From the IMG/VR virus record IMGVR_UViG_3300031999_000001, positions 1-64,000 of that record: a stretch of DNA of 64,000 bases, one strand, 5' to 3'. Positions within the stretch are counted from its first letter, which is position 1; each line of letters starts with the position of its first letter. The notes below the pieces were generated by a model. That model worked only from the letters and a program-made list of their open reading frames with translations. It searched no databases and was not told the DNA's origin. A program made the translations under genes and the position numbers. Of this stretch, positions 7,346-57,139 are shown piece by piece. This DNA comes from a virus (Duplodnaviria; Heunggongvirae; Uroviricota; Caudoviricetes).

Positions 7346-7630
7346 TTATTCTGTCCTATATATTTTTCTAAAATTAGTTACATATAATAATTTACCGTTA
7401 CTATACATACCATCAATAAGAACTTTGAATTCATATCTATCTGTTTTTGAAATAATTGTACTTTTTAAAATTTCAAATAATTCTGTGTTTTCAATAGTCA
7501 TTAATCTATGTTTATGATTTTCATTTTCGGCAATATATGAACAATAGGTTTTGGGTGTTCTTCCATATCCTGCTCTCCTGATAAATTTCCATGTTATTTG
7601 AAGTGTTTCTTTGTCCATTTTAATTATCAA
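7346..7630 (-). CDS. hypothetical protein
   Basis: ORF only. Confidence 0.3.
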   Translation of the reverse strand: MIIKMDKETLQITWKFIRRAGYGRTPKTYCSYIAENENHKHRLMTIENTELFEILKSTIISKTDRYEFKVLIDGMYSNGKLLYVTNFRKIYRTE

Positions 7631-9035
7631 TATTAGTTGTTAATACCGTTGCAGTCATACTTGGTCTGGTGAGTGCTACATATTTTAATTGATTGCGTTC
7701 CTTTAAAATCCAATTTTCATTTATGTCATTTTCCATTACCATAACATGTTGATATGTAGAACCTTGTACTTTATGGCAAGTTATAGCCAGTCCATAATCA
7801 AGGTCTTTATTTATAACATCACCACTGCCTCTAAGCATTCCATTCCTATATCTGTCTATGGTTTTCATTAAAAGATTACAGCGTCTGAAATCATAATATT
7901 TTATCCATAATTTTTTATTAGTTTTTCCCATGTCTCTGAAAAAATCATGCATTTCTGCATAATGATGAAGAATTTCATGATCATTAGCATTAATTATAAA
8001 AACATTCTGATATTTAAATTTACCACGTGCAAGATTTTCTTTTAATTTAACATTATAACCTTTGATATCATATTTATTTTCTTCCAACCCAGATTTTTCA
8101 ATAACACGGTAATCAGCAGAATTTTCAATAATATTATACTTTTGACTTTCATTACTAATGCTTCTGTAACCCATAAGAACATCACCAACCTCAATAATAT
8201 CTGTTTTTTCACCAAATAATGCGGTTCTAATGACTTTATTAGCTGCCATAACAGTATCATTCTTCCATGCGATTACCTTTACATAATCGGTGTCTTTTTT
8301 GAATTCATCAGAATTGAATTTATCAAGTATTGCTTTACGAAATTCTCTTTTATCAACAGTAAATATTACACCTTCACCTAAATCATTCATAACGCTTTTT
8401 CTTTTAAAACCGCCATCAAGTCTGTTGAGATTATTCCTTAAGGCATCATAAACAAATGCCAGAGGATTAGTATCGTTTTGTCTTTCAATTTTTGTAAGTT
8501 GATGAAATTCATTTGTTTCCTGACTAAACACAACACTTTCTTTTTCACCCACCGGGGGAATTTGTGCCGGGTCGCCCATGAATAATATTTTAGTACGACT
8601 ATTTTTAGTTTGGTCAAGAATCAAATCATATAATTCCTGATTAATCATAGATGCTTCATCAATAATAACAAAATTATAATCTGTAATTTTCGGTACAGCA
8701 ATAGGATTAAATTTAGGGTCATTAGGATTAAAATTATCCAGATCAACATCAGGTCTTAATCCAAGCAAAGCATGTAATGTTTGACCCTCTTTACCAGTAA
8801 AATTCATTACAACCTTTTTGGCTTTATGCGTTGGTGCTGAAACTACAACACCATAATGATAAGTATCAAGTATTTTTTTAATGATGGTTGATTTGCCGGT
8901 CCCCGCATAACCCGCTAATATAAAGAAAGTCTGACCATTTTTTAACCAACGCTTAATTTTCACCAAACCGTCAAATTGTTCGTCATTAAAAGTAATTATC
9001 TTACCTGTTGGTAATTGTAATTGATTTTCATCCAT
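7620..9035 (-). CDS. dda: SF1 DNA helicase, Dda/RecD-like
   Basis: Walker A GYAGTGKST, Walker B VIIDEASM, motif III GDPAQIPPV, and motif VI ITCHKVQGSTY. These are characteristic of RecD/Dda (AAA_30/UvrD_C_2) helicases. Confidence 0.8.
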   Translation of the reverse strand: MDENQLQLPTGKIITFNDEQFDGLVKIKRWLKNGQTFFILAGYAGTGKSTIIKKILDTYHYGVVVSAPTHKAKKVVMNFTGKEGQTLHALLGLRPDVDLDNFNPNDPKFNPIAVPKITDYNFVIIDEASMINQELYDLILDQTKNSRTKILFMGDPAQIPPVGEKESVVFSQETNEFHQLTKIERQNDTNPLAFVYDALRNNLNRLDGGFKRKSVMNDLGEGVIFTVDKREFRKAILDKFNSDEFKKDTDYVKVIAWKNDTVMAANKVIRTALFGEKTDIIEVGDVLMGYRSISNESQKYNIIENSADYRVIEKSGLEENKYDIKGYNVKLKENLARGKFKYQNVFIINANDHEILHHYAEMHDFFRDMGKTNKKLWIKYYDFRRCNLLMKTIDRYRNGMLRGSGDVINKDLDYGLAITCHKVQGSTYQHVMVMENDINENWILKERNQLKYVALTRPSMTATVLTTNIDN

Positions 9036-15729: not shown

Positions 15730-16578
15730 TTATTCGTTTTTAGGTATATAATTCAATAAAAATTCTCTATCTTGTGTAAATGTTGGGCATTCATCGGCAA
15801 CCCATTTACTACGAATGGTTGTTTGTAAACAATCGACAGGTGGCATTCCTTCTGGTAATTTAGGTGTGACAACTACTTCAACCTGTTGTTTAAAAATAAA
15901 TCTACCACGCTTATACTTAGGTGCATAGTCGTTCCAGTTAATACCCTTTTGGAATATCATTTCCTGCTGTTCACTCACATTTTTACCTGCAAGTTCTTTG
16001 TGACTGTAAAGACTCTGTGCAACACTTGAAATGCTATTGCGAACAGTATCTTGCTGTCTCCAAATGAAGTAGTTTTCAACCTCATAGTCACACGGAATGG
16101 TAAATACTCTGGCATCAAATTCAGCAAGTTTAGAACCAAGCACTTCACCAAGAAGAACCTGTTCAAATGCAGTAATTCCATGTGCCTCAATATCAACATT
16201 CATGCTTCCATATGCACGAAATATTCTTAACTGATTGAACTTAGCGGTAGCCATACTTGCAGCAACACTTGCCATTTTCTGGATATTACCGTCAAACCAC
16301 GCATCAGTACCTATCTTATCAAAGTCAGTAAGAAGAATGCTGATTTCATCACTCTGAACGAAACCAAACTTAGCACCCTGCATGTTCTTGCAGAGATAAC
16401 AAGCTGTTTCATCCATGTCAGCAATAAGACCATCATCAAACGGCTTATTCAGTCCACGTGTATATGTGTGGAATGCTTTGCCATCAATGCGAATGATTGT
16501 GTATGTTCTGCGGGGAAGTGTAATACGAGTTCTATCCTCATAATACTTCTTCATCCTATCACCAAATTCGTCTCTCAT
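15730..16578 (-). CDS. Thg1-like protein (tRNA-His guanylyltransferase family, 3'-5' nucleotidyltransferase, TLP)
   Basis: IIRIDGKAFHTY ~ Thg1 VVVRLDGRNFHRF. FGFVQSDEISILL ~ YGQSDEYSFVF. FDARVFTIP..E..NYFIWRQQD ~ FDGRVVVYPS...DYLSWRQAD. Confidence 0.75.
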   Translation of the reverse strand: MRDEFGDRMKKYYEDRTRITLPRRTYTIIRIDGKAFHTYTRGLNKPFDDGLIADMDETACYLCKNMQGAKFGFVQSDEISILLTDFDKIGTDAWFDGNIQKMASVAASMATAKFNQLRIFRAYGSMNVDIEAHGITAFEQVLLGEVLGSKLAEFDARVFTIPCDYEVENYFIWRQQDTVRNSISSVAQSLYSHKELAGKNVSEQQEMIFQKGINWNDYAPKYKRGRFIFKQQVEVVVTPKLPEGMPPVDCLQTTIRSKWVADECPTFTQDREFLLNYIPKNE

Positions 16579-16705: not shown

Positions 16706-17569
16706 TCATTGTAATTTGTTATTAAGTTTCTGTTTAAAAAGTTGAACTGTTTTATTACCAATTGCTTTTGATGCTTCTTTGGATTCAATGATTTCTTCAC
16801 GACCTTCCCGGTAAACATCTTCAACCATTGCTTTAATAACCTCACCCATTGATTCCATATTTACATCTGTGGGAAATTTCTGCAATACGTGTTCAAGTCT
16901 GAGATTAGTTACCCATTCTTCTGCAATTGCTTTTGCATCTTCCAAAACTTTTAGTGCTTCGGGACTAATTTCACGTTTAGTTTTAGTTTCCATTTGTTCA
17001 TCTGGCTTGTACTTGCAAATAACCCTTGCACCATTATTAAGACGCATTTCAACAAGTGGACGACAAACAATGCCTTCACGCTTATGGTCGTATCCCATGC
17101 CATTACGAACGGCTTGTATTGAATACATATCTCTTAATGCTGTAAGATTTTCCAATGTAACATCAATTTTGTTATAGTGTACAAATTCAACACCGAATTG
17201 ATAACATACATCTTGTGCATTTGGCACATCAAGCCAATTATCACCGACTTTTACATCAAAGCCAATGAATCTCAGTTCCTTGCCATAAGTATGTGACATA
17301 CCCTGTTGTTTTCCACCATAGGCTTCACCAAAAATAACAACATCAATATCGGGAAATATTTCCTGAAATTTTGATTTTAGAAAATTTTCATTGAATAATG
17401 CCACAAAGTTGTCGTGTTTTTCACCACCACTGGAAAAATGAATTATTTTCTCACTGAACTTCCAGCTTATATGTGCGGATGTGCCATGAATTTTTTCCAT
17501 AGCATAACATTCCTTAAATAAAAGGATTGTCTGGTCTTTGTAAAGGTTGTCAATGTGTAAATATCCCAT
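16706..17569 (-). CDS. RNA ligase, Rnl2 family
   Basis: Nucleotidyltransferase motifs collinear with T4 Rnl2: I EKIHGTS, III VIFGEAYG, IIIa FIGFDV, IV EGIVCRP, V RVICKYK. Confidence 0.8.
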   Translation of the reverse strand: MGYLHIDNLYKDQTILLFKECYAMEKIHGTSAHISWKFSEKIIHFSSGGEKHDNFVALFNENFLKSKFQEIFPDIDVVIFGEAYGGKQQGMSHTYGKELRFIGFDVKVGDNWLDVPNAQDVCYQFGVEFVHYNKIDVTLENLTALRDMYSIQAVRNGMGYDHKREGIVCRPLVEMRLNNGARVICKYKPDEQMETKTKREISPEALKVLEDAKAIAEEWVTNLRLEHVLQKFPTDVNMESMGEVIKAMVEDVYREGREEIIESKEASKAIGNKTVQLFKQKLNNKLQ

Positions 17570-20624: not shown

Positions 20625-20854
20625 TCTTCATTATTATTTTCGTTTAATCTTAATGCTCTAAAAAATCCGTTTGCCCAATGAATTCTTGCACGTAAATCAG
20701 TATGATTAAATTTACTAAGTATTTTACCATTTTCATCAGTAATTATCGATAAATAACCTTTAATGTTTTCTTTTTCATCTTCAAAATCCGATGTTTCAAT
20801 ATGAATTGTCATTGGAAAACCGTTTTCTTTAAAAAATGATACCATATTAATCAT
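20597..20854 (-). CDS. hypothetical protein (start trimmed to the internal ATG overlapping the SprT stop)
   Basis: The six-frame ORF extends to 20956, but the ATG at 20854 (or 20845) abuts the upstream stop. Confidence 0.3.
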   Translation of the reverse strand: MINMVSFFKENGFPMTIHIETSDFEDEKENIKGYLSIITDENGKILSKFNHTDLRARIHWANGFFRALRLNENNNEEWNLREHTN

Positions 20855-21299
20855 TATTAATTGTCCAAATAAATAAATATTTTGGATTATAAATACCACC
20901 ACAACATTTACCACATGAAATGTTTTTTCTTCTGTGCCTTTTAATAATTTTCCCACAAATAGGACATGTGCCTTTATATTTTGCTTTTATATTTGCTTCA
21001 CCACGATATAATCTCTGTCCATTACAACCAATTTCAATTGCTTGTTGTTTCCATATATGATTATGACCCTGTTTTCTACCAACAAGAGCATGCGCAATTT
21101 CATGAAGTATTGTGTCAATAACTTCTTTTTCATCAACCAAAGGTAAATAATTTTTTGATAATGAAATGATTTTCTTTGTGTGACTACAATTACCCAATCG
21201 TGTTTTGGCATTATCAAAAACAAATTTCCAACCTTTAATTAATAGATTGTGTTTGTCCATTAACTTGACAGCGATTGTCCTTACTGCTTCTTTTTCCAT
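20847..21299 (-). CDS. SprT-like zinc metalloprotease with C-terminal zinc ribbon
   Basis: HEIAH zincin motif followed by CPICGK ... CGKCCG. Confidence 0.6.
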   Translation of the reverse strand: MEKEAVRTIAVKLMDKHNLLIKGWKFVFDNAKTRLGNCSHTKKIISLSKNYLPLVDEKEVIDTILHEIAHALVGRKQGHNHIWKQQAIEIGCNGQRLYRGEANIKAKYKGTCPICGKIIKRHRRKNISCGKCCGGIYNPKYLFIWTINND

Positions 21300-21300
21300 A

Positions 21301-22935
21301 TTATAAATCTACTTTAAAACGTAATGCAACTGGAAAACGTGGTTTTTTGTTTTTTCTTGTATAACCTTGATACTGAACTGTTACTATTCTACCAATAACT
21401 AATGATTTGTCATCAGCATATAATTTAAGGTCATCCATTTTACCTTTGAGTTTACAATCAAATGTAATACCTGCTGGTAACTGTTGGTCTTCTTTGGTTC
21501 TTTCACAAATGAACACAGCTTTACCTGCCATGATACCTTTTGTACCTATCTTTATGTCAACAACACGAAATTCGTCATCATCAAATACTTTAACTTTTTG
21601 CAAATCGTATGAACGTTTGTTCACATACATTCCATCAAAGTTTCTGACAATTGCACCTTCATATCCCATTTCCATGAAGTCTTCATAGGCTTGCATCAGT
21701 TCCTCTTTACTGTTAACAATTCTTGATTCAACAATATGAATTGGAGAATTTTCAAATATTGAACGCCATCCTTCAAGTATTAAATACCTATCATAATTTG
21801 TAAGATTTGGAAGTGCTAAATCATAAACATGATATTGAATAACTTCATAACCATCTTGTGGTTCATCGGATGTTATTAAAGAAGTTAGTTTTTCGAATGT
21901 TATTTTTTCTTTTGGAAAATTAAGTACTGCATGATCACCAAATAATTCGAATGCTTTTTTATCATATGCTTTTGCAGCATCTTCAGCAGTATTAAAATAA
22001 CCAATATGAATTTTTTTATAATCATGAGTAATCTGAGCATGCCAATTTTCATCTCTTTTAAAAAACATAACACCTTTATATCCACTTGTATTGTTTATTC
22101 TTTTTTCAGAATTTGCACCATTATTTGATTCAGTAACTAATCTTAGATTACTTTTTCTTGCATCTAATTTATTTCTATTAATATGATCAACATCACTTTC
22201 TGGTAAATCTAAAACTAATTTATGTATATAATAAATTTTATGTTTATATGTTGTAATGGGATATCCATTTCCAGAGATTGTAATTTTATTACCTTGTAAT
22301 TTAGGTAAATCTTCTTCATCAAGAAAAACAATATTTCCATTAATATTAAATTCAAGAAATGGTATTTCTATTGATTTATTTTCTTGAATATTAATATCTG
22401 GATGCCATAATTCACCATCAAATCTATCAGCAAGTCCACAATTTTCTAAAGTATTGACAATATGAGGAATTGTTAAAATTTGTTTACGGGTTCTACTCCA
22501 CATAGTTACCTTTCCAATGTCATACTGACTGGTGCAACGGTGTCCATCCAATTTAGGTTGTGCTATTGCAGGAAATTTAATTTTATGCCCTTGTTCCCAA
22601 AATTTATGGGCAAGAATTGGAAATACACCACCTTCAATAATTGCATCGGTTGTACCTGCTTGTGCATCTTCAATACTCTGAACATAACCTTTTTTGAGTT
22701 GTTTATCCCATCTGGCTTTGGCTTGAAATATACCTTGTTCAATTGGAGTTGTTTCATTTGATCTACCAGTATTTTTACCTGATAAAACCTGTTCATGGCT
22801 GTATTGAATTTTACCCCCAACCTGACCAAATCTGTTGATTATGGTAGAGATGCCATTGATTTCATCAACACTGACTGTCCATTCTTGAATAGCACCAGTA
22901 CTGGTTTTCTTGTAAAGTTTTGGAAATTCTTTCAT
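21301..22935 (-). CDS. ATP-dependent DNA ligase carrying an in-frame HNH-AP2 endonuclease domain insertion
   Basis: Ligase motifs I KLDGHR, III FDGELW, IIIa YHVYDL, IV EGAIVR and V LQKVK, plus an OB-fold tail. About 180 aa (nt ~21858..22398) between motifs III and IIIa form an HNH (VDHINRNKLDARKSNLR) plus AP2 (SGYKGV...WHAQI...IGYFNTAEDAAKAYD) unit. Confidence 0.75.
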   Translation of the reverse strand: MKEFPKLYKKTSTGAIQEWTVSVDEINGISTIINRFGQVGGKIQYSHEQVLSGKNTGRSNETTPIEQGIFQAKARWDKQLKKGYVQSIEDAQAGTTDAIIEGGVFPILAHKFWEQGHKIKFPAIAQPKLDGHRCTSQYDIGKVTMWSRTRKQILTIPHIVNTLENCGLADRFDGELWHPDINIQENKSIEIPFLEFNINGNIVFLDEEDLPKLQGNKITISGNGYPITTYKHKIYYIHKLVLDLPESDVDHINRNKLDARKSNLRLVTESNNGANSEKRINNTSGYKGVMFFKRDENWHAQITHDYKKIHIGYFNTAEDAAKAYDKKAFELFGDHAVLNFPKEKITFEKLTSLITSDEPQDGYEVIQYHVYDLALPNLTNYDRYLILEGWRSIFENSPIHIVESRIVNSKEELMQAYEDFMEMGYEGAIVRNFDGMYVNKRSYDLQKVKVFDDDEFRVVDIKIGTKGIMAGKAVFICERTKEDQQLPAGITFDCKLKGKMDDLKLYADDKSLVIGRIVTVQYQGYTRKNKKPRFPVALRFKVDL

Positions 22936-22940
22936 GATTG

Positions 22941-22971
22941 TTTATACGAATTTTATTTAAAAATATTACAA
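22941..22971 (-). promoter_or_regulatory. conserved phage promoter-like motif, copy C (TTGTAA-N19-TATAAA)
   Basis: Invariant TTCGTATA; 6 nt upstream of the ligase ATG. Confidence 0.45.
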
Positions 22972-23769
22972 TTTTTCATGTCTTTGTTTCACCATTTCTT
23001 TTTGAATGTATTGCCAGAACCACTTATAAAACATATTTGGTAATATTCCATGATTTGCAAAACCATAGAGTCCACAACTGAAGAAATCATGTGCCTCAAT
23101 AATAATTGTAGCATAATCACATACAGCAACATCAAGTGTATATGCAACAGGTGCTGACTTGTATGTTTTAATCATGCTTTTAATTGTATCAACACTTGGG
23201 AATCTGGTGAAATCACCAGCATAATTCTGCAAACCAACAAATTTGTCTTGATATACAAATGCACGCCATTCACTTTCAATACAACTAATATAATCAGAAA
23301 TCTGATAGTTTCCAATTGGAATTTTAGTTGAATATTGTGTTCCATGATTACCAGTATCCTTACATTCAACAATTTCTGAAAAATATTTTATTCGGTCATT
23401 ACTTTTAACAAAATACTTACCACCACAATTTTCGAGAGATAAATGATTGCCATTAAATATGTGTCTTTGGGTAAAACAAGGGTCAAATAATTCTTCTGGA
23501 ACATTAATTGGCATCACATGAATACCATAAAAATGGTGTATAAACTCTGAAACGAATTCAACACTTCCCACTGGAATATATTTCTCATGTAATGATTTAA
23601 AAGGCATTGGATAAATATCAATTGGTTCGACAGTATCGTGGTATTCGACAAACTTTACTTTAATATTATTATCACGATGTAACCAATTTTGAAATTTAAT
23701 TGATTCAAGTAATGTAAATGAAAAATCATGTACAATTTTTCCCTTAATTTTTTGAATTAAAAATTTCAT
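22966..23769 (-). CDS. hypothetical protein (possible ATP-grasp-like C-terminal region)
   Basis: YTLDVAVCDYATIIIEAHDFFSCG loosely resembles the ATP-grasp E-x-N strand; weak. Confidence 0.3.
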   Translation of the reverse strand: MKFLIQKIKGKIVHDFSFTLLESIKFQNWLHRDNNIKVKFVEYHDTVEPIDIYPMPFKSLHEKYIPVGSVEFVSEFIHHFYGIHVMPINVPEELFDPCFTQRHIFNGNHLSLENCGGKYFVKSNDRIKYFSEIVECKDTGNHGTQYSTKIPIGNYQISDYISCIESEWRAFVYQDKFVGLQNYAGDFTRFPSVDTIKSMIKTYKSAPVAYTLDVAVCDYATIIIEAHDFFSCGLYGFANHGILPNMFYKWFWQYIQKEMVKQRHEKL

Positions 23770-23800: not shown

Positions 23801-24958
23801 TCAACAATTCTCCAATGTATATTGAAAACCCTTATCTGAATAACATGGAAATTTAAAATTTATACCACAATATGAACCAATTTCATTAAAATTCACTGTA
23901 ATTAATTTACCTTTTTTTGTTACTGGAATTGCTTCGGGGTTAACTTGGTCAAGACAAGTAATTACCATACTTCTTCGTGAAATAGGATTATGATATTTAT
24001 CACATTCAACAGCATATTTCAATAAATCCAAATCAAGTACAGTTTTTCTGAAAGTTCCCTGATAACATTCATTTATATTGGTTTCATTGGGATTTTCTTT
24101 AATGTATGATGTATCAAGTCTTTCATTGGTCATATATCCATTACCATGACGTGTTTGATATGCACGTGTTACATAATAAGTTTTTAAATTTTTCTTATCA
24201 ATAAAAATTCCATATTTATTTATAATTTCTATTGCATTTTTTGATGTGGTATTACTTCTTGTAACATGTGGAAAAAAACCATAATTAGCATCTAACATAA
24301 TGCCCTGACCGCCTTCAAAAATCCAATCATTATCCATGAAACCATATAAATCATTAACAATATTATATCTGGTAACAAGGTCATCACATGCAATAATAAA
24401 ATCATCATAGAGTTTTTTGATATAGGCATGTTGATGTTCATTTTCTGGATTAAAATTTAACCTATAATATATATTCATTATAAGTCTGAGTTTTTCATTA
24501 CGGATTGCGGGATAAAATAAATCCCTGACATAAAGATGATAATGATCTTCATTTCTTTGAATTGTTGTTCCAAATCCTACACCAACACTACCATGATTAT
24601 TTTTTTCTTCAAGTTTATGATTTTGCAATATATCAAATGGTGTTGTAATCATTGCATTGGCATTAAGATATAATATTGGATTTACATCCATTTCTCTTAA
24701 CACCTTACCTTCTTTTAATATTCCAACAGGACTTACCGTACAATATTCTGACCAATAAGTTGGTACATTTAAAAGTGTACCTGAACCAAAATTAGAAAAT
24801 ACATGTCTTTTATCATTGGTAATAACAGTATGTCCAGATTGATGACCTGAATTATGTCTTATAACTAATGGATTTTTTGCTTTTGAACACAAATAATTAA
24901 CAAAAGAACCCTTGCCTTCATCACCATATAAACATCCGAGAATTACATATATATTCAT
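23801..24958 (-). CDS. adenylosuccinate synthetase family protein (PurA/PurZ homologue)
   Basis: N-terminal VILGCLYGDEGKGS (PurA P-loop GDEGKGK). RHNSGHQSGHTV ~ GGHNAGHT. GFGTTIQRNEDHY ~ GTTGRGIGPAYEDK. EGGQGIMLDANYGFFPHVTRSNTT ~ [24 protein letters not shown]. At 385 aa it is shorter than bacterial PurA (~430 aa). Confidence 0.8.
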   Translation of the reverse strand: MNIYVILGCLYGDEGKGSFVNYLCSKAKNPLVIRHNSGHQSGHTVITNDKRHVFSNFGSGTLLNVPTYWSEYCTVSPVGILKEGKVLREMDVNPILYLNANAMITTPFDILQNHKLEEKNNHGSVGVGFGTTIQRNEDHYHLYVRDLFYPAIRNEKLRLIMNIYYRLNFNPENEHQHAYIKKLYDDFIIACDDLVTRYNIVNDLYGFMDNDWIFEGGQGIMLDANYGFFPHVTRSNTTSKNAIEIINKYGIFIDKKNLKTYYVTRAYQTRHGNGYMTNERLDTSYIKENPNETNINECYQGTFRKTVLDLDLLKYAVECDKYHNPISRRSMVITCLDQVNPEAIPVTKKGKLITVNFNEIGSYCGINFKFPCYSDKGFQYTLENC

Positions 24959-48617: not shown

Positions 48618-51600
48618 TTATTCTATTGTTAACGAAGATATTCCACTTTCATTTAATTGTACATTAATTAGATAATCAGGATTAATTTCCCAATTATGTT
48701 CAACAATTAGAATCTTTTTTATATTTGTTTTAATTAATTGTAAAATTTCAATAAATTCTTCACCGCTTTCTTCAGTTAATTTACCCATGACTTCATCAAG
48801 CAAGAATATTGTTGGCTTGGCTTTTACATTAATTTGATTTAATGCAAATTTTAATACAACACTTGCAAATGTTCTTTCTTTACCACTGGCACTAATACAA
48901 TCAATAATTGCTGCAGGTCTGTTGTTATAAATCAATTTTGGTTTTAAATCATCAACATCAAGCCAAACTTTAAATGGAGCAACAGATAATATATTTTCAA
49001 GCGTTAAATTAATTTTGGGTAAAATATAATTAACTAACATTTGTCTTGGTATTCCATCTCTATGAACACATTTTTTATAAAGATTCATTATCATATCACG
49101 ATATTCCTGATTTTTAAATTCAGTAATTAATGTTTCGTTATTTTTTATTCTAATCTGCCTTTCGCCAATACTTGTTTTTCTAATGAAAATATTTTCCTTT
49201 TTATCACCTTCTTCAATTTCAAGTTCACCAATTTTAAGTTTAGCCGTGGTAATTCCTTTTTCAATTTTTTGATTTTCTTCGATTTGTTTTAAACTATTTT
49301 CATGATTATCAATTTTTTGTTGAAGAATATTAATTTTTAACTGTTCATTTTGAACTAATATAGGAATTTGATTTAATTCTGTTTGAAGTTCCTTGCGTTT
49401 ATCAACATCATTCTTATCATTTGTAAGTGTACCAATTTCTTTTAGTATTGATTCCATTTCAAGTGCTGCACTTTGAATTTCTTTTTGAACTTTTTCAATT
49501 TCCAAATTTTTAGCATTAATAACATCCTGATGCTTTTTCTTATCAATAGTTTCTTTTGTTGTTATTTGATTAGCAATTTTAAACATTTCTGTTTCTTTTT
49601 GTTTAACCAAATCATCAATATGTACTTGATGTTCTGGTTGCAACGGTTGTTTACATGTGGGACATATCTTACTTTGTTTTAAATCATTAATTTCTTTTTT
49701 ATATTTAGCACCATCTTGTTTTAATCTAAAAATATCACCACCAATTATTTCAATTTGATGTTCTTCATCACGAATAATTTGTTCGAAACCTTTGATTTTT
49801 AACCTTTCATTATACTCATTTGTTTTATGTGTTTCCTTTTTAGTTGTAAGTTCCGTTAATTTTTTTTCATCATAAGTTTCTTTAAGTGGTTTAATACTTA
49901 CTTCTAAAACTAATTGTCGTGCGTTATAATCAATTATGTTCTTATTATGAGTACTTATATCACCTTGGACTTCTTCTGCGTTTAAATTGTAAATTTCGGG
50001 GTCTATTTTGAATAATTTCTTAGTAAGGTCTTCTACATATTTTCGTCCAGTTTGAATTCTATTTTGAACATCAGGTAATTTTATTGTTTCAATTTCAGTA
50101 ATTTCACCTTCAAGTTGACGAATTTCTTGAGTTAATTGAGAATTTTGTTCGGTTGTAATATCAATATTACAATTAATTCTACTTTTTTCATTAACTCTTT
50201 TTTGATATTCTTTAAGTCCTTCTAATTTTTTATCAAAAATATCCAAACCACTATCAAATAATAATGAATCAATAAATATTGCCATATCATTTGATAATAT
50301 TCTATTAAGCGTATCTGATGTGGTCATAACAATTCGCATAAAATTATCATATGTTCCAATAATTGTTTCGATCTTCTTTTGTGTTTTTATGCGTCTATCT
50401 TCATCCAATTTCTCCAATGAATTTTCATTGGTCATTTCTTCATCGGGATTTGATAATATATAATAATTTAATGTGGTTGGTGCACCTATAATTTCATCGC
50501 CTTTGTTTTTTGTAATTTCTGTTTTCTTTTTGATGCCAAAAAATTCACCATTGGCTTCCAATACAAGATATCCCTCACAATGATTTGAATTGTTTCTGTT
50601 ATTAACAAAACGCTTATCGCCATATTTCATTCTGGTTTCGGTTTCCAATGTTTTACCAAAAAGAATATATGAAATTAATTTCATTATTGTGGTTTTTCCT
50701 GCCGTATTTATTCCTGTTATTTGAAACAAACCATCCATATCTCTCCAATCAATATCTAATTCCCCATATGACATAAAATTTTTACAACCAAATTTAATTA
50801 TATTCCATTCACCATTTAATTCATCAATTATGTTAATCTCATTAAGAATTTCTTCATCGAGAACAATAACATCATTAATCATATTTTCATCAGTACCAAT
50901 TTTTGTAAGAAATTCTTTAAAAATTTCATGTTGAACCGCTTTATTTGTAACATTTTGTAATGTTATGTTTTCGTTTGTTTGAATTTTTTCACTTTCAAGA
51001 AATTCGTTTTTATGTGAAATTATTATATTTTGATATTTTAATTTTATATATTCAGTTAGTTTTCTTTCATTTTCTTTTGTTCTTGTTTGTGGTAATGTAC
51101 CCCAAACAAATCTGATTTTCATGTATTTGGTTGGATTATTTATTTCAAAATCCAAATCATCAAAATCGGTATAAGGTGTTATTTTTATATTTTTGAATGA
51201 ATATTCATTATTGATTGGGATTTCTTCTGCAGTTTTTGTGTCAAAATGCCATAAAAGGTAACCATGAAAAGCATCATCACCTTCTGTAACATCCTGTGCA
51301 ATTAATGACCCACAATATGCTTTAGTTTTATTTTTATCCAAATATTGTAATTTATGAATATGGGCAAAAAATGAAAAATCACTCTTAAAATCACTTATTT
51401 TATAAAACGATTTACTTTTCATTTCAAAACCAGTTGTAGTCTTACAACCATTTACAGATTCATGAAATAAATCGATAAATATATAATTTTTATGTTCTTC
51501 TGCCGTAAATTGTTTTACTGCTTTTGTTTTCCAAGGATTGTTTTTGGGTTCACCATAATGCCACACTGCCCATATAATATTATCATCATAATAAAAACCA

Positions 51601-51947
51601 GTTTTATCATAATAAATTACATTTGGATTATTAAGTGTTTTAACAATTGCTTCAATACTATCAACACGTTTTAAATTTTTTTTACGACAATCATGATTTC
51701 CTCTTGTTATTCTAACTGGTGCAATTTTACTCAACGTATTAAGTAATTCATGTGCCATAATTAATTGTTCACCTTGTAAATCAAGATAATCATGAACCAA
51801 ATCACCACCAATTACAATTCTATCTGGTTTTTTTTCCTCTAAAGATATTTTTAGATTATTAAATACTTGTTGGTACTCTTCGTTGCGGGTTGGTGTTTTA
51901 CGTATATGAATATCTGCAATTTGAGCAATATGAGAAATTTTATTCAT
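48618..51947 (-). CDS. fused Mre11-Rad50 (SbcD-SbcC) recombination nuclease/ATPase
   Basis: N-terminal calcineurin-like phosphoesterase motifs (DIH ... GGDLVHD ... GNHD). A P-loop GINTAGKTT follows, then a long heptad coiled-coil and a zinc hook CPTCKQP. The C-terminus has Walker B/D-loop ILLVDEVMG. Confidence 0.75.
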   Translation of the reverse strand: MNKISHIAQIADIHIRKTPTRNEEYQQVFNNLKISLEEKKPDRIVIGGDLVHDYLDLQGEQLIMAHELLNTLSKIAPVRITRGNHDCRKKNLKRVDSIEAIVKTLNNPNVIYYDKTGFYYDDNIIWAVWHYGEPKNNPWKTKAVKQFTAEEHKNYIFIDLFHESVNGCKTTTGFEMKSKSFYKISDFKSDFSFFAHIHKLQYLDKNKTKAYCGSLIAQDVTEGDDAFHGYLLWHFDTKTAEEIPINNEYSFKNIKITPYTDFDDLDFEINNPTKYMKIRFVWGTLPQTRTKENERKLTEYIKLKYQNIIISHKNEFLESEKIQTNENITLQNVTNKAVQHEIFKEFLTKIGTDENMINDVIVLDEEILNEINIIDELNGEWNIIKFGCKNFMSYGELDIDWRDMDGLFQITGINTAGKTTIMKLISYILFGKTLETETRMKYGDKRFVNNRNNSNHCEGYLVLEANGEFFGIKKKTEITKNKGDEIIGAPTTLNYYILSNPDEEMTNENSLEKLDEDRRIKTQKKIETIIGTYDNFMRIVMTTSDTLNRILSNDMAIFIDSLLFDSGLDIFDKKLEGLKEYQKRVNEKSRINCNIDITTEQNSQLTQEIRQLEGEITEIETIKLPDVQNRIQTGRKYVEDLTKKLFKIDPEIYNLNAEEVQGDISTHNKNIIDYNARQLVLEVSIKPLKETYDEKKLTELTTKKETHKTNEYNERLKIKGFEQIIRDEEHQIEIIGGDIFRLKQDGAKYKKEINDLKQSKICPTCKQPLQPEHQVHIDDLVKQKETEMFKIANQITTKETIDKKKHQDVINAKNLEIEKVQKEIQSAALEMESILKEIGTLTNDKNDVDKRKELQTELNQIPILVQNEQLKINILQQKIDNHENSLKQIEENQKIEKGITTAKLKIGELEIEEGDKKENIFIRKTSIGERQIRIKNNETLITEFKNQEYRDMIMNLYKKCVHRDGIPRQMLVNYILPKINLTLENILSVAPFKVWLDVDDLKPKLIYNNRPAAIIDCISASGKERTFASVVLKFALNQINVKAKPTIFLLDEVMGKLTEESGEEFIEILQLIKTNIKKILIVEHNWEINPDYLINVQLNESGISSLTIE

Positions 51948-55633: not shown

Positions 55634-57139
55634 TTATAAAATTAAATTTGAATTTATGTGTGCAACAAGACCAGTTTCATCATTCCAAATAAAACCATCT
55701 GCTGCTTTTATCGCACCAATAAAACCTTTTTTATGATGCCATTCTTCTGTTCCCGTAAGACTTGAAAGATATCTTACTGTAACACCCAAATCTTCATTTA
55801 ACACTCTCACCTTATCAAGTGTTGCAGAATATTTCATGTCCCTTTTTCTATGAATATGACCAACATGAAATTCATGATATAAAGTTTCACTCCACATTGG
55901 TTTAGATTCAATATCATTTGCCATAATCATTGGAAGTGAACCTTCCTTTTCTTCACTACCATGTGTAAAACCAAGTAATACCTTACCAAAACGATAATAT
56001 TTTCTTGGTGATGCACCAGTATTAATTGAAACATTTGGGTCTTCATTAAACCATGCTTCTAAGAATTTACCAATATAAAAACTGCGTTCAAAATCATGAT
56101 TACCCGGTATTACCAATACATCAATAGGTCTTCCAGTTTGCATTAACATATTAATACCATCAACAAGTAGTCTTACACCAACATTAAATGTTTTTTGCCA
56201 ACGCAAATCTTCATCCTGCTGAGTTCCCTGTGTGGTTGTATTAAATATTGTATCGCTGTTAAAAAAATCATTTCCAACTGGAAATAATATACGTGAATAT
56301 GGAAATCTGTTTGCGGTATGTAATAAATCTTGAATTGCATATAAAAATCTTTCACGAGCAATTTTAGTATCATAATTCTCACCAGTTTCGCCACCCCATG
56401 CAAGTTTACCTAAATGAAGGTCAAATATTGCCACTTCAAGAAGATTGTTTTCATCGTTAGGATTTTGTTTAATCAAACCCCAATCAATTAATGGTGCTGA
56501 ATAGTCTTTAATCATTTGAAGAAAAACATCACCAGCCATTCTGTCTTTAACAAGTTCAACATTTCTAATAAGTCTTGCTTTAACTTGAAAATTTTGAATT
56601 GTTCTGGCATAACCATCTTTCCAACCAGTAACATCCCATTTATTAACTCGATGTTCTGCTACTTTCCATACTTCAGGGTCTACTTTACAATATTCAAGTA
56701 GTCCTGCAAGTGTTGTTATGTGGTTTTTAGGATAACTTTCATCACCATTGCATGGATTGCATATGGTTTCCATTTTCTTTTCATCGGTAATAAGATTGAG
56801 AATTGCAGTATTTCCTTTTTGATCAAAAGTTACTTGTTCTTTACCATCTATTGCTGGCGGAATATCTATTGGTTTTTGTCTTTTTATAACTTCCGTAATA
56901 TCGTCAGTTTTTAAACCAAATCCTTTATAATATGCATATTGCTTATATGCATCATTAAATAAAGTAAAATATTCATCTTCAAGTGTGCCATTTTCATATT
57001 TTTCATAAACAAGAGCTTTAATGTTTTTTACATAAGTATCTGCAAATCCACATTTAACGGATGCTTCTTTAACAGATATTTTATTTTTAATTGCATAATT
57101 GATGATTTCTATTGCTTTTTCGATTCGTTCTTTTGTCAT
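55634..57139 (-). CDS. calcineurin-like metallophosphoesterase domain protein
   Basis: VLVIPGNHDFE and FHVGHIHR motifs in the C-terminal half. Confidence 0.55.
   Translation of the reverse strand: MTKERIEKAIEIINYAIKNKISVKEASVKCGFADTYVKNIKALVYEKYENGTLEDEYFTLFNDAYKQYAYYKGFGLKTDDITEVIKRQKPIDIPPAIDGKEQVTFDQKGNTAILNLITDEKKMETICNPCNGDESYPKNHITTLAGLLEYCKVDPEVWKVAEHRVNKWDVTGWKDGYARTIQNFQVKARLIRNVELVKDRMAGDVFLQMIKDYSAPLIDWGLIKQNPNDENNLLEVAIFDLHLGKLAWGGETGENYDTKIARERFLYAIQDLLHTANRFPYSRILFPVGNDFFNSDTIFNTTTQGTQQDEDLRWQKTFNVGVRLLVDGINMLMQTGRPIDVLVIPGNHDFERSFYIGKFLEAWFNEDPNVSINTGASPRKYYRFGKVLLGFTHGSEEKEGSLPMIMANDIESKPMWSETLYHEFHVGHIHRKRDMKYSATLDKVRVLNEDLGVTVRYLSSLTGTEEWHHKKGFIGAIKAADGFIWNDETGLVAHINSNLIL

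What the first reader, a model, noticed from the sequence alone, without database searches (positions are those of the whole stretch)
21858..22398. HNH-AP2 homing-endonuclease domain inserted in-frame inside the catalytic core of the DNA ligase
The 544-aa ligase ORF has motifs I, III, IIIa, IV and V in the normal order. Motif III (FDGELW, aa 173) and motif IIIa (YHVYDL, aa ~370) are ~195 aa apart instead of the usual ~30. The extra ~180 aa is a complete HNH endonuclease of the phage HNH-AP2 type: an N-terminal GY..I...HKLV module, VDHINRNKLDARKSNLR, then an AP2 DNA-binding domain (YKGV...WHAQI...IGYFNTAEDAAKAYDKKAFELFG). The insert has no intein-like Cys/Ser at its N-terminus and no His-Asn terminus. 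There are no stop codons, and the only frameshift is within the track's framing. This therefore looks like a homing endonuclease that has invaded a ligase gene as a translated domain, or an unusual intein-less insertion. That raises the question of whether the ligase is active with the insert, or whether protein- or RNA-level excision occurs.
Basis: seen in the sequence. Interest (0 to 1): 0.65.

Follow-up and report, generated by a model that had tools for sequence, protein, structure and literature searches.

The report
Splice-less homing endonuclease inside phage ligase
A complete DNA-cutting "selfish gene" (an HNH-AP2 homing endonuclease) sits in-frame in the middle of a large phage's DNA ligase gene with no intron or intein to remove it, and the same element has spread into the same spot of several unrelated phage ligases, which is a rare way for such parasites to live.

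Summary
ORF 21301-22935 (-) encodes a 544-aa ATP-dependent DNA ligase. A 170-aa block (aa 177-346, nt 21898-22407) replaces the 8-aa loop that 193 of 238 relatives carry between motif III and the conserved Phe-helix before motif IIIa.

The block is a whole HNH-AP2 endonuclease without its own start or stop codon, joined by short linkers. The closest ligases (87% identical, same gene order) lack it, with clean DNA boundaries.

At least nine other ligases, including five 50%-identity cluster representatives, carry it at the same site. They come from phages of 28-62% GC. Their nearest ligase relatives are mostly insert-less.

Some inserts resemble each other more than their host ligases do. The insert has lower GC than its flanks in four of five loci, evolves under purifying selection (dN/dS about 0.2) and keeps its HNH residues. 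One ligase holds an in-frame deletion remnant.

No intein blocks or intron RNA model match, although true inteins are detected elsewhere in this ligase family. AlphaFold2 models a confidently folded extra domain on flexible linkers.

Best reading: a mobile, splice-less homing endonuclease translated as part of the ligase. Nuclease activity, ligase activity and absence of splicing are inferred. The closest precedents are the ShiLan and lone-LAGLIDADG insertions in actinophage methylases.

The parts
21301..22935 (-). Whole ORF: 544-aa ATP-dependent DNA ligase carrying the in-frame insert (the end coordinate 21301 includes the stop codon)
   Evidence: the AF2 model has pLDDT 91.9 and its best fold matches are the ASFV and T4 ligases
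22408..22935 (-). Ligase part 1 (aa 1-176): N-terminal DNA-binding domain, motif I (QPKLDGHR, aa 126-133, nt 22537-22560) and motif III (FDGEL, aa 172-176, nt 22408-22422)
   Evidence: alignment A1, invariant K128 D130 G131 R133 D173 G174 E175 L176
21898..22407 (-). The insert (aa 177-346, 510 nt): an HNH-AP2 homing-endonuclease cassette without its own start or stop codon. It replaces the 8-aa loop YNH(A/E)YKEN of insert-less relatives
   Evidence: GC is 24.1% against 36.0% and 31.5% in the flanks; GC3 is 4.7% against 21% and 18%
22360..22407 (-). N-terminal linker of the insert (aa 177-192, WHPDINIQENKSIEIP). The [WF]-H-P-x-[IA]-N signature is shared, with some deviations, by insert-bearing ligases and is absent from free-standing homologues
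   Evidence: alignment A3; lowest pLDDT at aa 185-187 and at residues 1-16 of the insert-only model
22099..22359 (-). Endonuclease N-terminal beta domain plus HNH core (aa 193-279). The Pfam HNH_3 match is aa 245-273 (nt 22117-22203). D250-H251, N263, N272 and N275 are conserved
21931..22086 (-). AP2 DNA-binding domain (aa 284-335)
   Evidence: Pfam AP2 scores 27.5 bits, below the cut-off of 33.3. PDB sequence hits include WRI1 at 1.9e-10 and AtERF1 at 6e-6. The fold match to 1gcc has TM 0.79 and rmsd 1.5 A
21898..21930 (-). C-terminal linker of the insert (aa 336-346, AVLNFPKEKIT)
21301..21897 (-). Ligase part 2 (aa 347-544): invariant F347-E348 helix, motif IIIa (YHVYD, nt 21820-21834), motif IV (GYEGAIVR, nt 21643-21666), motif V (LQKVK, nt 21589-21603) and the OB domain

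Best explanation
The 510-nt block is a mobile homing-endonuclease cassette. It is a complete HNH-AP2 endonuclease that has lost its own start and stop codons and lies in-frame in a loop of the ligase nucleotidyltransferase domain, directly after motif III. It has no splicing apparatus, so it is transcribed and translated as part of the ligase. The product is a 63-kDa chimera in which the endonuclease is a separately folded domain on two flexible linkers.

The inferred life cycle runs as follows. In a cell co-infected by a related phage with an empty ligase allele, the HNH-AP2 domain nicks or cuts that allele at or near the conserved motif-III coding sequence. Recombinational repair from the occupied allele then copies the cassette in. 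The occupied allele is immune because the insertion disrupts the target.

The element persists because the loop tolerates a domain insertion, so the ligase stays functional. It later decays by in-frame deletions.

Shown here: the anatomy, the boundaries, the sporadic same-site distribution, the mosaic ancestry, purifying selection, and the absence of intein and intron signatures. Inferred: nuclease activity and target, the absence of any excision, and retained ligase activity.
For: (1) The closest ligases (P0003, P0004, P0006; 86-87% identical over the ligase flanks; same purA-R2K-ligase gene order) lack the block. The DNA alignment shows one clean 486-nt net insertion.

(2) Of 238 family members aligned, 10 carry the block at the same site and 193 have an 8-aa loop. 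For most carriers the nearest flank neighbour is insert-less: window to P0004 at 87%, P0002 to P0118 at 74%, P0243 to P0255 at 75%, P0244 to P0262 at 67%. P0072 and P0241 are each other's nearest neighbour. The five cluster representatives with the insert (P0241-P0244, P0276) are confirmed by Pfam.

(3) The carriers sit in different genomic contexts and in phages of 28-62% GC. Each is seen on several independent contigs.

(4) Mosaic ancestry. The window flanks are mostly 81-90% nt-identical to the insert-less L001, with dips to 67-75%, against 46-85% to L085 and L004. The insert is 75-87% identical to the L085 and L004 inserts. Adjacent to the insert, identity to L085 and L004 rises from 52-60% to 75-87% at the junction. 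At the protein level, insert versus flank identity is 74% against 59% (window-P0002), 60% against 40% (window-P0076) and about 80% for the insert in L004.

(5) The insert has lower GC than the flanks in the window, L085, L088 and L090.

(6) dN/dS of the insert in the ligase frame is 0.16-0.27. The HNH residues D-H...N...N are invariant in 6 inserts and nearly so in 60 homologues.

(7) The insert corresponds to a whole free-standing HNH-AP2 protein of 150-200 aa, roughly its residues 15-165. No Met is conserved at its start.

(8) P0273 keeps both ends of the insert but has lost about 115 aa of the HNH/AP2 core in-frame. This is the decay stage expected of a homing element that must stay translatable.

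(9) No Hint/intein domain is found, although the same tool finds true LAGLIDADG inteins at motif I in the family members P0285 and P0345. No Rfam intron model matches even at E<=10.

(10) In the AF2 model both ligase halves and the insert are confident (mean pLDDT 91.9), with low confidence only in linkers.

(11) The ligase flanks are under strong purifying selection (dN/dS 0.09 against L001; 0.11-0.12 between the two insert-bearing L004 and L085) and all catalytic motifs are intact.
Against: There is no transcript, protein or activity data. Absence of splicing is argued from missing signatures, not observed.

For some pairs (window-P0072, P0002-P0072, P0072-P0075) the insert is less conserved than the flanks, so part of the distribution could reflect vertical descent plus loss.

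The lower dS of the insert may be partly an artefact of its extreme A/T-ending codon usage.

The insertion lies one residue before an invariant Phe-Glu helix. From memory of ligase structures, this helix may contact DNA near the nick, so interference with ligation cannot be excluded.

Foldseek found no solved HNH structure matching the nuclease part. Only AP2 matched.

L004, the closest insert copy, lies in a frameshifted ligase. That could mean decay, or it could be sequencing error.
Confidence: 0.7

Rival explanations
1. The insert is removed after all, by an unrecognised mechanism. Candidates are a highly degenerate or novel self-splicing RNA, a non-canonical protein splicing or proteolytic step, or translational bypassing. 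The mature ligase would then lack it.
For: The insertion is at a conserved catalytic motif, as inteins and introns typically are. Three of five carriers have Thr or Ser just before the invariant Phe. The RNA fold z-score is -2.0, marginally more stable than shuffles.
Against: No Hint/intein Pfam match, although inteins are detected in sister ligases. The first insert residue is W, F or Y. The residue before F347 is T, T, S, N or N, and F347 itself is no nucleophile. Only about 15 and about 10 aa lie outside the HNH-AP2 core, too little for splicing blocks. No Rfam hit at E<=10. All 510 nt encode a conserved protein in the host frame, with dN/dS about 0.2. The decayed remnant P0273 preserves the frame. 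A 510-nt bypass is ten times the T4 gene 60 gap (from memory).
Confidence: 0.1
2. The block is a domesticated accessory domain rather than a selfish element. The ligase would use the AP2/HNH module for sequence-targeted binding, for nick-and-seal repair, or for attacking competing DNA. Its patchy distribution would reflect repeated loss.
For: Purifying selection and intact catalytic residues in all carriers. The conserved linkers suggest one optimised fusion. HNH fusions to Rnl2 RNA ligases in jumbo phages have been interpreted this way (PMC7824862).
Against: Only 10 of 238 family members carry it, and most have insert-less nearest neighbours. Mosaic nucleotide ancestry and deviant GC point to recent lateral acquisition. 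A decayed remnant exists. Precise loss restoring the same 8-aa loop many times is less parsimonious than gain by homing.
Confidence: 0.12
3. The insertion has inactivated a dispensable ligase. The ORF would be an endonuclease expression vehicle, or a pseudogene in waiting, with ligation supplied by the host or by another phage ligase.
For: Phage ligases can be conditionally dispensable (general knowledge of T4 gene 30). L004 shows frameshifts in an insert-bearing ligase. The insertion is next to an invariant helix.
Against: All ligase motifs are intact. Flank dN/dS is 0.09-0.12, including between the two carriers L004 and L085. Intact ORFs are found in at least six divergent lineages and many samples. 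The remnant P0273 remains a full-length in-frame ligase. AF2 folds both halves into a normal ligase.
Confidence: 0.07
4. Assembly or annotation artefact: a chimeric contig or a mis-joined read set.
For: The data are metagenomic. The insert has deviant composition.
Against: Identical proteins are recovered from independent assemblies and samples: P0001 on 6 contigs, P0002 on 18 contigs, and others on 2-3 each. Homologous insertions occur at the same codon position in distant ligases.
Confidence: 0.01

Closest known systems
ShiLan-domain and Pacc40 insertions, and the 'lone LAGLIDADG' insertion, in actinobacteriophage DNA methylases (Arsenault, Gosselin & Gogarten 2025, PMC11855218)
   Same: All are insertions into a phage DNA-enzyme gene that can be read through in the host frame without stops. 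They have a disjunct, homing-like distribution and no detectable intein or intron. They are predicted to loop out of the host protein. The Pacc40 element also encodes a ~160-aa protein that retrieves HNH and AP2-domain proteins in searches.
   Different: In ShiLan and Pacc40 the HNH is hidden in another reading frame, with its own GTG start and stop codon, and the host-frame translation is an unstructured filler. Here the endonuclease itself is in the host frame, has no start or stop, and is predicted to fold as a domain of the ligase. The host gene (an ATP-dependent ligase of large aquatic or sediment phages) and the insertion site (motif III) also differ. The lone LAGLIDADG is in-frame but appeared to be vertically inherited.
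[quoted passage not shown]
   Same: Both are in-frame insertions at a conserved catalytic motif that carry an HNH nuclease, are sporadically distributed, and are translated with the host protein.
   Different: No Hint splicing domain, no N-terminal Cys/Ser/Ala, no His-Asn plus Cys/Ser/Thr at the C-junction, and no room for splicing blocks. True inteins in this same ligase family sit at motif I and are readily detected.
Free-standing phage HNH-AP2 homing endonucleases (PHROG 99; Pfam HNH_3 plus AP2; e.g. those noted in RB49, Felix O1 and Xp10-like phages)
   Same: The domain architecture and length are the same, at 35-56% identity. The N-terminal beta domain, HNH core and AP2 domain are all present.
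   Different: Those are separate genes between host genes, with their own start and stop codons. All 80 IMG/VR relatives inspected were free-standing; a few carry extra domains or tandem duplications, but none is embedded in a host enzyme. This one is embedded in an enzyme's reading frame.
Group I intron-encoded HNH endonucleases (I-HmuI, I-TevIII type) and HEG-split 'genes in pieces' (mobE in Aeh1 nrdA)
   Same: Both are selfish nucleases that target conserved sites of phage DNA-metabolism genes and spread by break repair.
   Different: There is no ribozyme, and the host gene is neither split into two ORFs nor restored by RNA splicing. It is one continuous polypeptide.

Membership tests
ATP-dependent DNA ligase (covalent nucleotidyltransferase superfamily) | Motif I KxDG with the adenylated lysine, and motifs III, IIIa, IV and V in order | tested here: met
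   KLDG (K128), FDGEL, YHVYD, GYEGAIVR and LQKVK are all present and invariant in alignment A1. Pfam PF01068 at 2.6e-12 and PHROG 114 at 4.8e-70.
ATP-dependent DNA ligase (covalent nucleotidyltransferase superfamily) | C-terminal OB domain and overall ligase fold | tested here: met
   PF14743 scores 26.5 bits, just under the cut-off of 28. The AF2 model matches ASFV ligase (E 8.5e-24, TM target 0.63-0.67) and T4 ligase.
ATP-dependent DNA ligase (covalent nucleotidyltransferase superfamily) | Self-adenylation and nick sealing | not testable with these tools
   This needs purified protein.
HNH (His-Me finger) endonuclease, HNH_3 type | Sequence match to the family model and a conserved D-H...N...N catalytic signature | tested here: met
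   PF13392 scores 29.9 bits against a cut-off of 24.8. PHROG 99 at 1.9e-42. D74, H75, N87, N96 and N99 (insert numbering) are invariant or nearly so.
HNH (His-Me finger) endonuclease, HNH_3 type | Beta-beta-alpha-metal fold resembling a solved HNH nuclease | tested here: inconclusive
   The insert-only AF2 model is confident (pLDDT 91.4), but Foldseek against the PDB returned only AP2 matches for the C-terminal half.
AP2/ERF DNA-binding domain | Three-stranded sheet packed on a helix; sequence match | tested here: met
   Pfam AP2 scores 27.5 bits, below the cut-off of 33.3. PDB phmmer hits include WRI1 at 1.9e-10 and AtERF1 at 6e-6. The fold match to 1gcc has TM 0.79 and rmsd 1.5 A.
Intein | Hint splicing domain (blocks A, B, F, G) | tested here: not met
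   No Intein_splicing or Hint hit. The same scan finds these domains in P0285 and P0345. Only about 15 and about 10 aa lie outside the HNH-AP2 core.
Intein | Nucleophile at intein residue 1 and at the +1 extein residue; a penultimate-terminal His-Asn | tested here: not met
   The first residues are W, W, F, F, Y. The C-terminal junctions read KIT|F, KIT|F, AVS|F, ITN|F and AIN|F.
Group I or group II self-splicing intron | Match to the intron covariance models (structured ribozyme core) | tested here: not met
   Rfam 15 scan of 20800-23400, both strands, at E<=10: only two chance snoRNA-like hits. The fold z-score is -2.0.
Group I or group II self-splicing intron | Intron sequence free of the host reading-frame constraint | tested here: not met
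   No stops in the host frame, against 8 and 33 stops in the other two frames. dN/dS is about 0.2 in the host frame. The remnant P0273 keeps the frame.
Homing endonuclease gene (mobile element) | Sporadic presence at one site of a conserved host gene, incongruent with host phylogeny | tested here: met
   10 of 238 carriers, most with insert-less nearest neighbours. Insert identity exceeds flank identity for several pairs. Mosaic nucleotide identity.
Homing endonuclease gene (mobile element) | Site-specific cleavage of the empty allele and gene conversion | not testable with these tools
   This needs cleavage and co-infection assays.
ShiLan-type hidden-HNH insertion | Endonuclease encoded in an alternative frame with its own start and stop | tested here: not met
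   The HNH-AP2 is in the ligase frame. The other frames are closed.

The most novel reading that the evidence does not exclude
This would be a distinct class of selfish element: a start-less, stop-less HNH-AP2 homing endonuclease that spreads among phage DNA ligase genes purely as a permanently translated domain insertion, with no RNA or protein splicing at any stage. The replication enzyme and the parasite's nuclease would then be one polypeptide, and the element would survive only by choosing a loop that tolerates a 19-kDa guest domain. It would be the minimal possible homing element. It could also be a natural intermediate on the route by which nucleases become fixed domains of host proteins.
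Probability: 0.55. Interest if true: 0.72.

Novelty: new variant of a known kind. Interest (0 to 1): 0.62.

Why it matters
Homing endonucleases are thought to persist inside essential genes only when a self-splicing intron or intein hides them, or when they sit between genes. Here a nuclease appears to have dispensed with both. It has spread to the same catalytic-core site in at least six divergent phage ligase lineages and left a decayed in-frame remnant.

If confirmed, this shows that splicing is not obligatory for invading an enzyme's catalytic domain. It would give a natural test case for domain-insertion tolerance in ligases. It would also document a route from selfish nuclease to resident protein domain. 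The chimera itself, a ligase fused to a sequence-specific nuclease or nickase, and its target site could be useful enzymologically. All of these claims are testable with one cloned ORF.

Tried and rejected
(1) Cultured-phage precedent. A tblastn search of the chimera against 50,697 phage records gave 50 hits covering at least 80% of the query, but these are Felixounavirus loci where an HNH gene merely neighbours the ligase. The 'DNA ligase (x2)' annotation in phage tootiki is a ligase annotated as two adjacent ORFs, with the HEG more than 1 kb upstream. A megablast search of the region found nothing.

(2) Other embedded copies. An IMG/VR scan with the insert profile gave 80 loci at 47% identity or less. 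All are free-standing; four long ORFs inspected were tandem or zinc-finger-extended HNH-AP2 proteins, not host enzymes.

(3) A source copy in the window. tblastn found no other HNH-AP2 copy in the 64 kb.

(4) Intron. Rfam at permissive thresholds found nothing and the RNA fold z-score is only -2.0.

(5) Internal expression signals. Promoter-like and terminator-like sites are no more frequent than in shuffled sequence. No Met is conserved at the position where free-standing homologues start.

(6) A fold match for the HNH half. None was returned.

(7) NCBIfam has no model for the insert or for the chimera.

(8) dS as a clock. The insert's dS is about half the flank dS, but I treat this as weak evidence because the insert's GC3 of 5-11% compresses synonymous differences.

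(9) I could not measure the insert-to-ligase geometry or the distance to the DNA-binding surface, because model coordinates are not exposed.
Full report
**Observation**

The minus-strand ORF 21301-22935 encodes 544 aa with no internal stop. Pfam finds the ATP-dependent ligase adenylation domain split into two stretches, an HNH_3 nuclease motif (aa 245-273, above the curated cut-off), an AP2 domain (aa 284-333) and the ligase OB domain. PHROGs gives ATP-dependent DNA ligase at 4.8e-70 and HNH endonuclease phrog_99 at 1.9e-42 over aa 219-348. PDB sequence searches hit the ASFV and T4 ligases on both sides, and plant AP2/ERF domains in the middle. The ligase motifs are in normal order: I KLDG (aa 128-131), III FDGEL (aa 172-176), IIIa YHVYD (aa 368-372), IV GYEGAIVR and V LQKVK. 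Only the coordinates need refining.

**Boundaries**

A protein search returned the identical protein (P0001). It also returned many ligases of 382-391 aa that lack the middle block; those examined are 78-87% identical over the ligase flanks. The contig of one of them (L001, encoding P0004) has the same purA-R2K-ligase gene order as the window.

The DNA alignment shows one clean discontinuity. Window aa 177-346 (nt 21898-22407, 510 nt) replace the 8 codons YNH(A/E)YKEN. This lies between the invariant DGEL of motif III and an invariant Phe-Glu that starts the next helix. Among 238 family members aligned, 193 have exactly 8 residues at this point and 10 have 159-180 residues.

**What the block is**

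The nearest relatives of the 170-aa block are free-standing HNH-AP2 proteins of about 150-200 aa, at 35-56% identity. Their N-terminal Met aligns near insert residue 15 and their C-terminus near residue 165. The block is therefore a complete endonuclease gene minus its start and stop codons, plus a linker of about 15 aa and another of about 10 aa.

The N-linker carries a [WF]-H-P-x-[IA]-N signature that most ligase-embedded copies share, with some deviations. This points to one element family rather than independent captures. The HNH residues (D250-H251, N263, N272, N275) are invariant among six embedded copies and invariant or nearly so across 60 homologues.

AlphaFold2 models the insert alone at pLDDT 91.4. 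Residues 1-16 and the last ten are the only weak parts. Its C-terminal half superposes on AtERF1 AP2 (TM 0.79, rmsd 1.5 A). No solved HNH structure was retrieved for the N-terminal half.

**Not an intein, not an intron, not an artefact**

- *Intein.* No Hint or intein-splicing domain is detected. The same Pfam scan detects Intein_splicing plus LAGLIDADG in two ligases of this very family (P0285, P0345), inserted at motif I. The first residue of the insert is W, F or Y. The residue before the invariant Phe is T, T, S, N or N. There is no His-Asn. There is no room for splicing blocks.
- *Intron.* Rfam 15 searched permissively over 20800-23400 gives only two chance snoRNA-like hits, and the RNA fold z-score is -2.0. 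The host frame is open while the other two frames hold 8 and 33 stops.
- *Artefact.* The exact 544-aa product is encoded on six contigs from at least three samples, and P0002 on 18 contigs.

**Evidence for mobility**

A search of 1.84 billion cluster representatives found five further 50%-identity clusters whose members match the whole chimera in one stretch (P0241-P0244, P0276). All were confirmed by Pfam as ligases with an internal AP2 match, and four of them also with HNH_3. Together with P0002, P0072, P0075 and P0076, the carriers come from phages with different neighbouring genes and with 28-62% GC.

For most carriers the nearest ligase by flank identity is insert-less: window to P0004 at 87%, P0002 to P0118 at 74%, P0243 to P0255 at 75%, P0244 to P0262 at 67%. 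P0072 and P0241 are each other's nearest neighbour.

Insert identity exceeds flank identity for several pairs: 74% against 59% (window-P0002), 60% against 40% (window-P0076), and about 80% for the insert in L004.

At the nucleotide level the window is a mosaic. Its flanks are mostly 81-90% identical to the insert-less L001, with dips to 67-75%, and 46-85% identical to L085 and L004. The insert is 75-87% identical to the L085 and L004 inserts. Adjacent to the insert, identity to L085 and L004 rises from 52-60% to 75-87% at the junction.

The insert is also compositionally foreign. Its GC is 24% against 32-36% in the flanks, and its GC3 is 4.7% against about 20%. The same lower GC is seen in L085, L088 and L090.

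**Evidence that it is translated and tolerated**

- dN/dS of the insert in the ligase frame is 0.16-0.27.
- The ligase flanks have dN/dS of 0.09 against L001, and 0.11-0.12 between the two carriers L004 and L085.
- No conserved internal Met or other start exists, and promoter-like and terminator-like sites are not enriched.
- P0273 is a 434-aa ligase that retains the insert's N-linker and first strands and its last AP2 helix and C-linker. It has lost about 115 aa of HNH/AP2 core in-frame. This is the degenerate stage expected of a homing element whose sequence must remain translatable because it is never spliced out.
- The full-length AF2 model (127-sequence alignment) has pLDDT 91.9. Low confidence is confined to aa 99-101 and to the insert's N-linker at aa 185-187. 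Its ligase parts match ASFV ligase.

**Mechanism proposed**

The cassette is expressed only as a domain of the ligase. The chimera's HNH-AP2 domain recognises and nicks or cleaves empty ligase alleles of co-infecting relatives at or near the motif-III coding sequence. Recombinational repair then copies the cassette. The occupied allele is immune because the site is disrupted. Cost to the phage is limited because the insertion lies in a loop and the guest domain hangs on flexible linkers.

Shown here: anatomy, boundaries, distribution, mosaicism, selection, and the absence of splicing signatures. Inferred: nuclease activity and target, retained ligase activity, and true absence of excision.

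One caution comes from memory of ligase-DNA structures and was not tested here. The helix immediately after the insert begins with an invariant Phe that may contact DNA near the nick, so some interference is conceivable.

**Comparison with what is known**

In-frame HNH nucleases are known inside inteins. HNH genes are known inside group I introns. Free-standing HNH-AP2 genes are common in phages.

The closest precedent is in actinophage DNA methylases. There the ShiLan and Pacc40 insertions are readable in the host frame, lack any splicing element and show homing-like distributions. However, they encode the HNH in a different frame with its own start and stop. A 'lone LAGLIDADG' is in-frame there but appeared vertically inherited (PMC11855218).

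I found no report of an HNH-AP2 domain inside a DNA ligase in the searchable literature. None of 50,697 deposited phage genomes shows the arrangement.

I therefore rate it a new variant of a known kind: an in-frame, splice-less, actively spreading homing endonuclease in an enzyme's catalytic core.

**Verdict**

Confidence is about 0.7 that this is a mobile, translated, unspliced endonuclease domain. Interest is 0.62.

Noticed in passing
P0285 and P0345 (ligase-family representatives): Two ligases of the same family (732-734 aa) carry a genuine intein (Intein_splicing plus LAGLIDADG_2) inserted at about aa 140, next to motif I. This phage ligase is therefore a hotspot for at least two kinds of mobile element at two catalytic motifs.
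   Followed up: partly
P0273 (434 aa), compared with P0244: This ligase holds a ~61-aa in-frame remnant of the HNH-AP2 insert. Both ends are kept and about 115 aa of the core are deleted. It looks like the decay stage of the element.
   Followed up: yes
L004 1-1620 (JGI 3300001533 contig MLSed_10022506): This is the closest copy of the insert (80% aa identity). It lies in a ligase broken into three frames and lacks the last ~19 codons of the insert and junction. It is either a decaying allele or carries sequencing errors from an old assembly.
   Followed up: partly
L001 6800-7149, compared with window 16706-17569: In the insert-less relative, the nearby RNA ligase gene (715 aa) carries an intein with a LAGLIDADG endonuclease. 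The window's RNA ligase (287 aa) does not. The two related phages thus carry different mobile elements in different ligase genes.
   Followed up: no
P0248 and P0355 (550 aa): These are N-terminal RNase H domains fused to ligases of this family.
   Followed up: no
P0002, P0027 and P0059; L085 4001-5794: Some family members have a ~55-70-aa N-terminal extension (MGNS.W..ERF…GIVKEGT…). The called start overlaps the end of the upstream R2K gene. This may be a real extra domain or a mis-called start.
   Followed up: no
window 55634-57139 (-): The SbcD/gp47-like repair exonuclease ORF is 501 aa but matches a 390-position PHROG profile end to end (aa 17-494 against positions 16-381). It gets no Pfam hit. 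About 110 extra residues may be another insertion.
   Followed up: no
window 1-64000: The context is a large AT-rich (27.8% GC) phage with no tRNA genes in the window. It encodes adenylosuccinate synthetase (23801-24958), an R2K ATP-grasp protein (22966-23769), a SprT-like protease (20847-21299), Thg1 (15730-16578), an RNA ligase, a Dda-like helicase (7620-9035) and an SbcC-like protein (48618-51947). Related contigs reach 200-370 kb, and one is labelled Candidatus Paceibacterota in NCBI, which is probably a mis-binned phage.
   Followed up: partly
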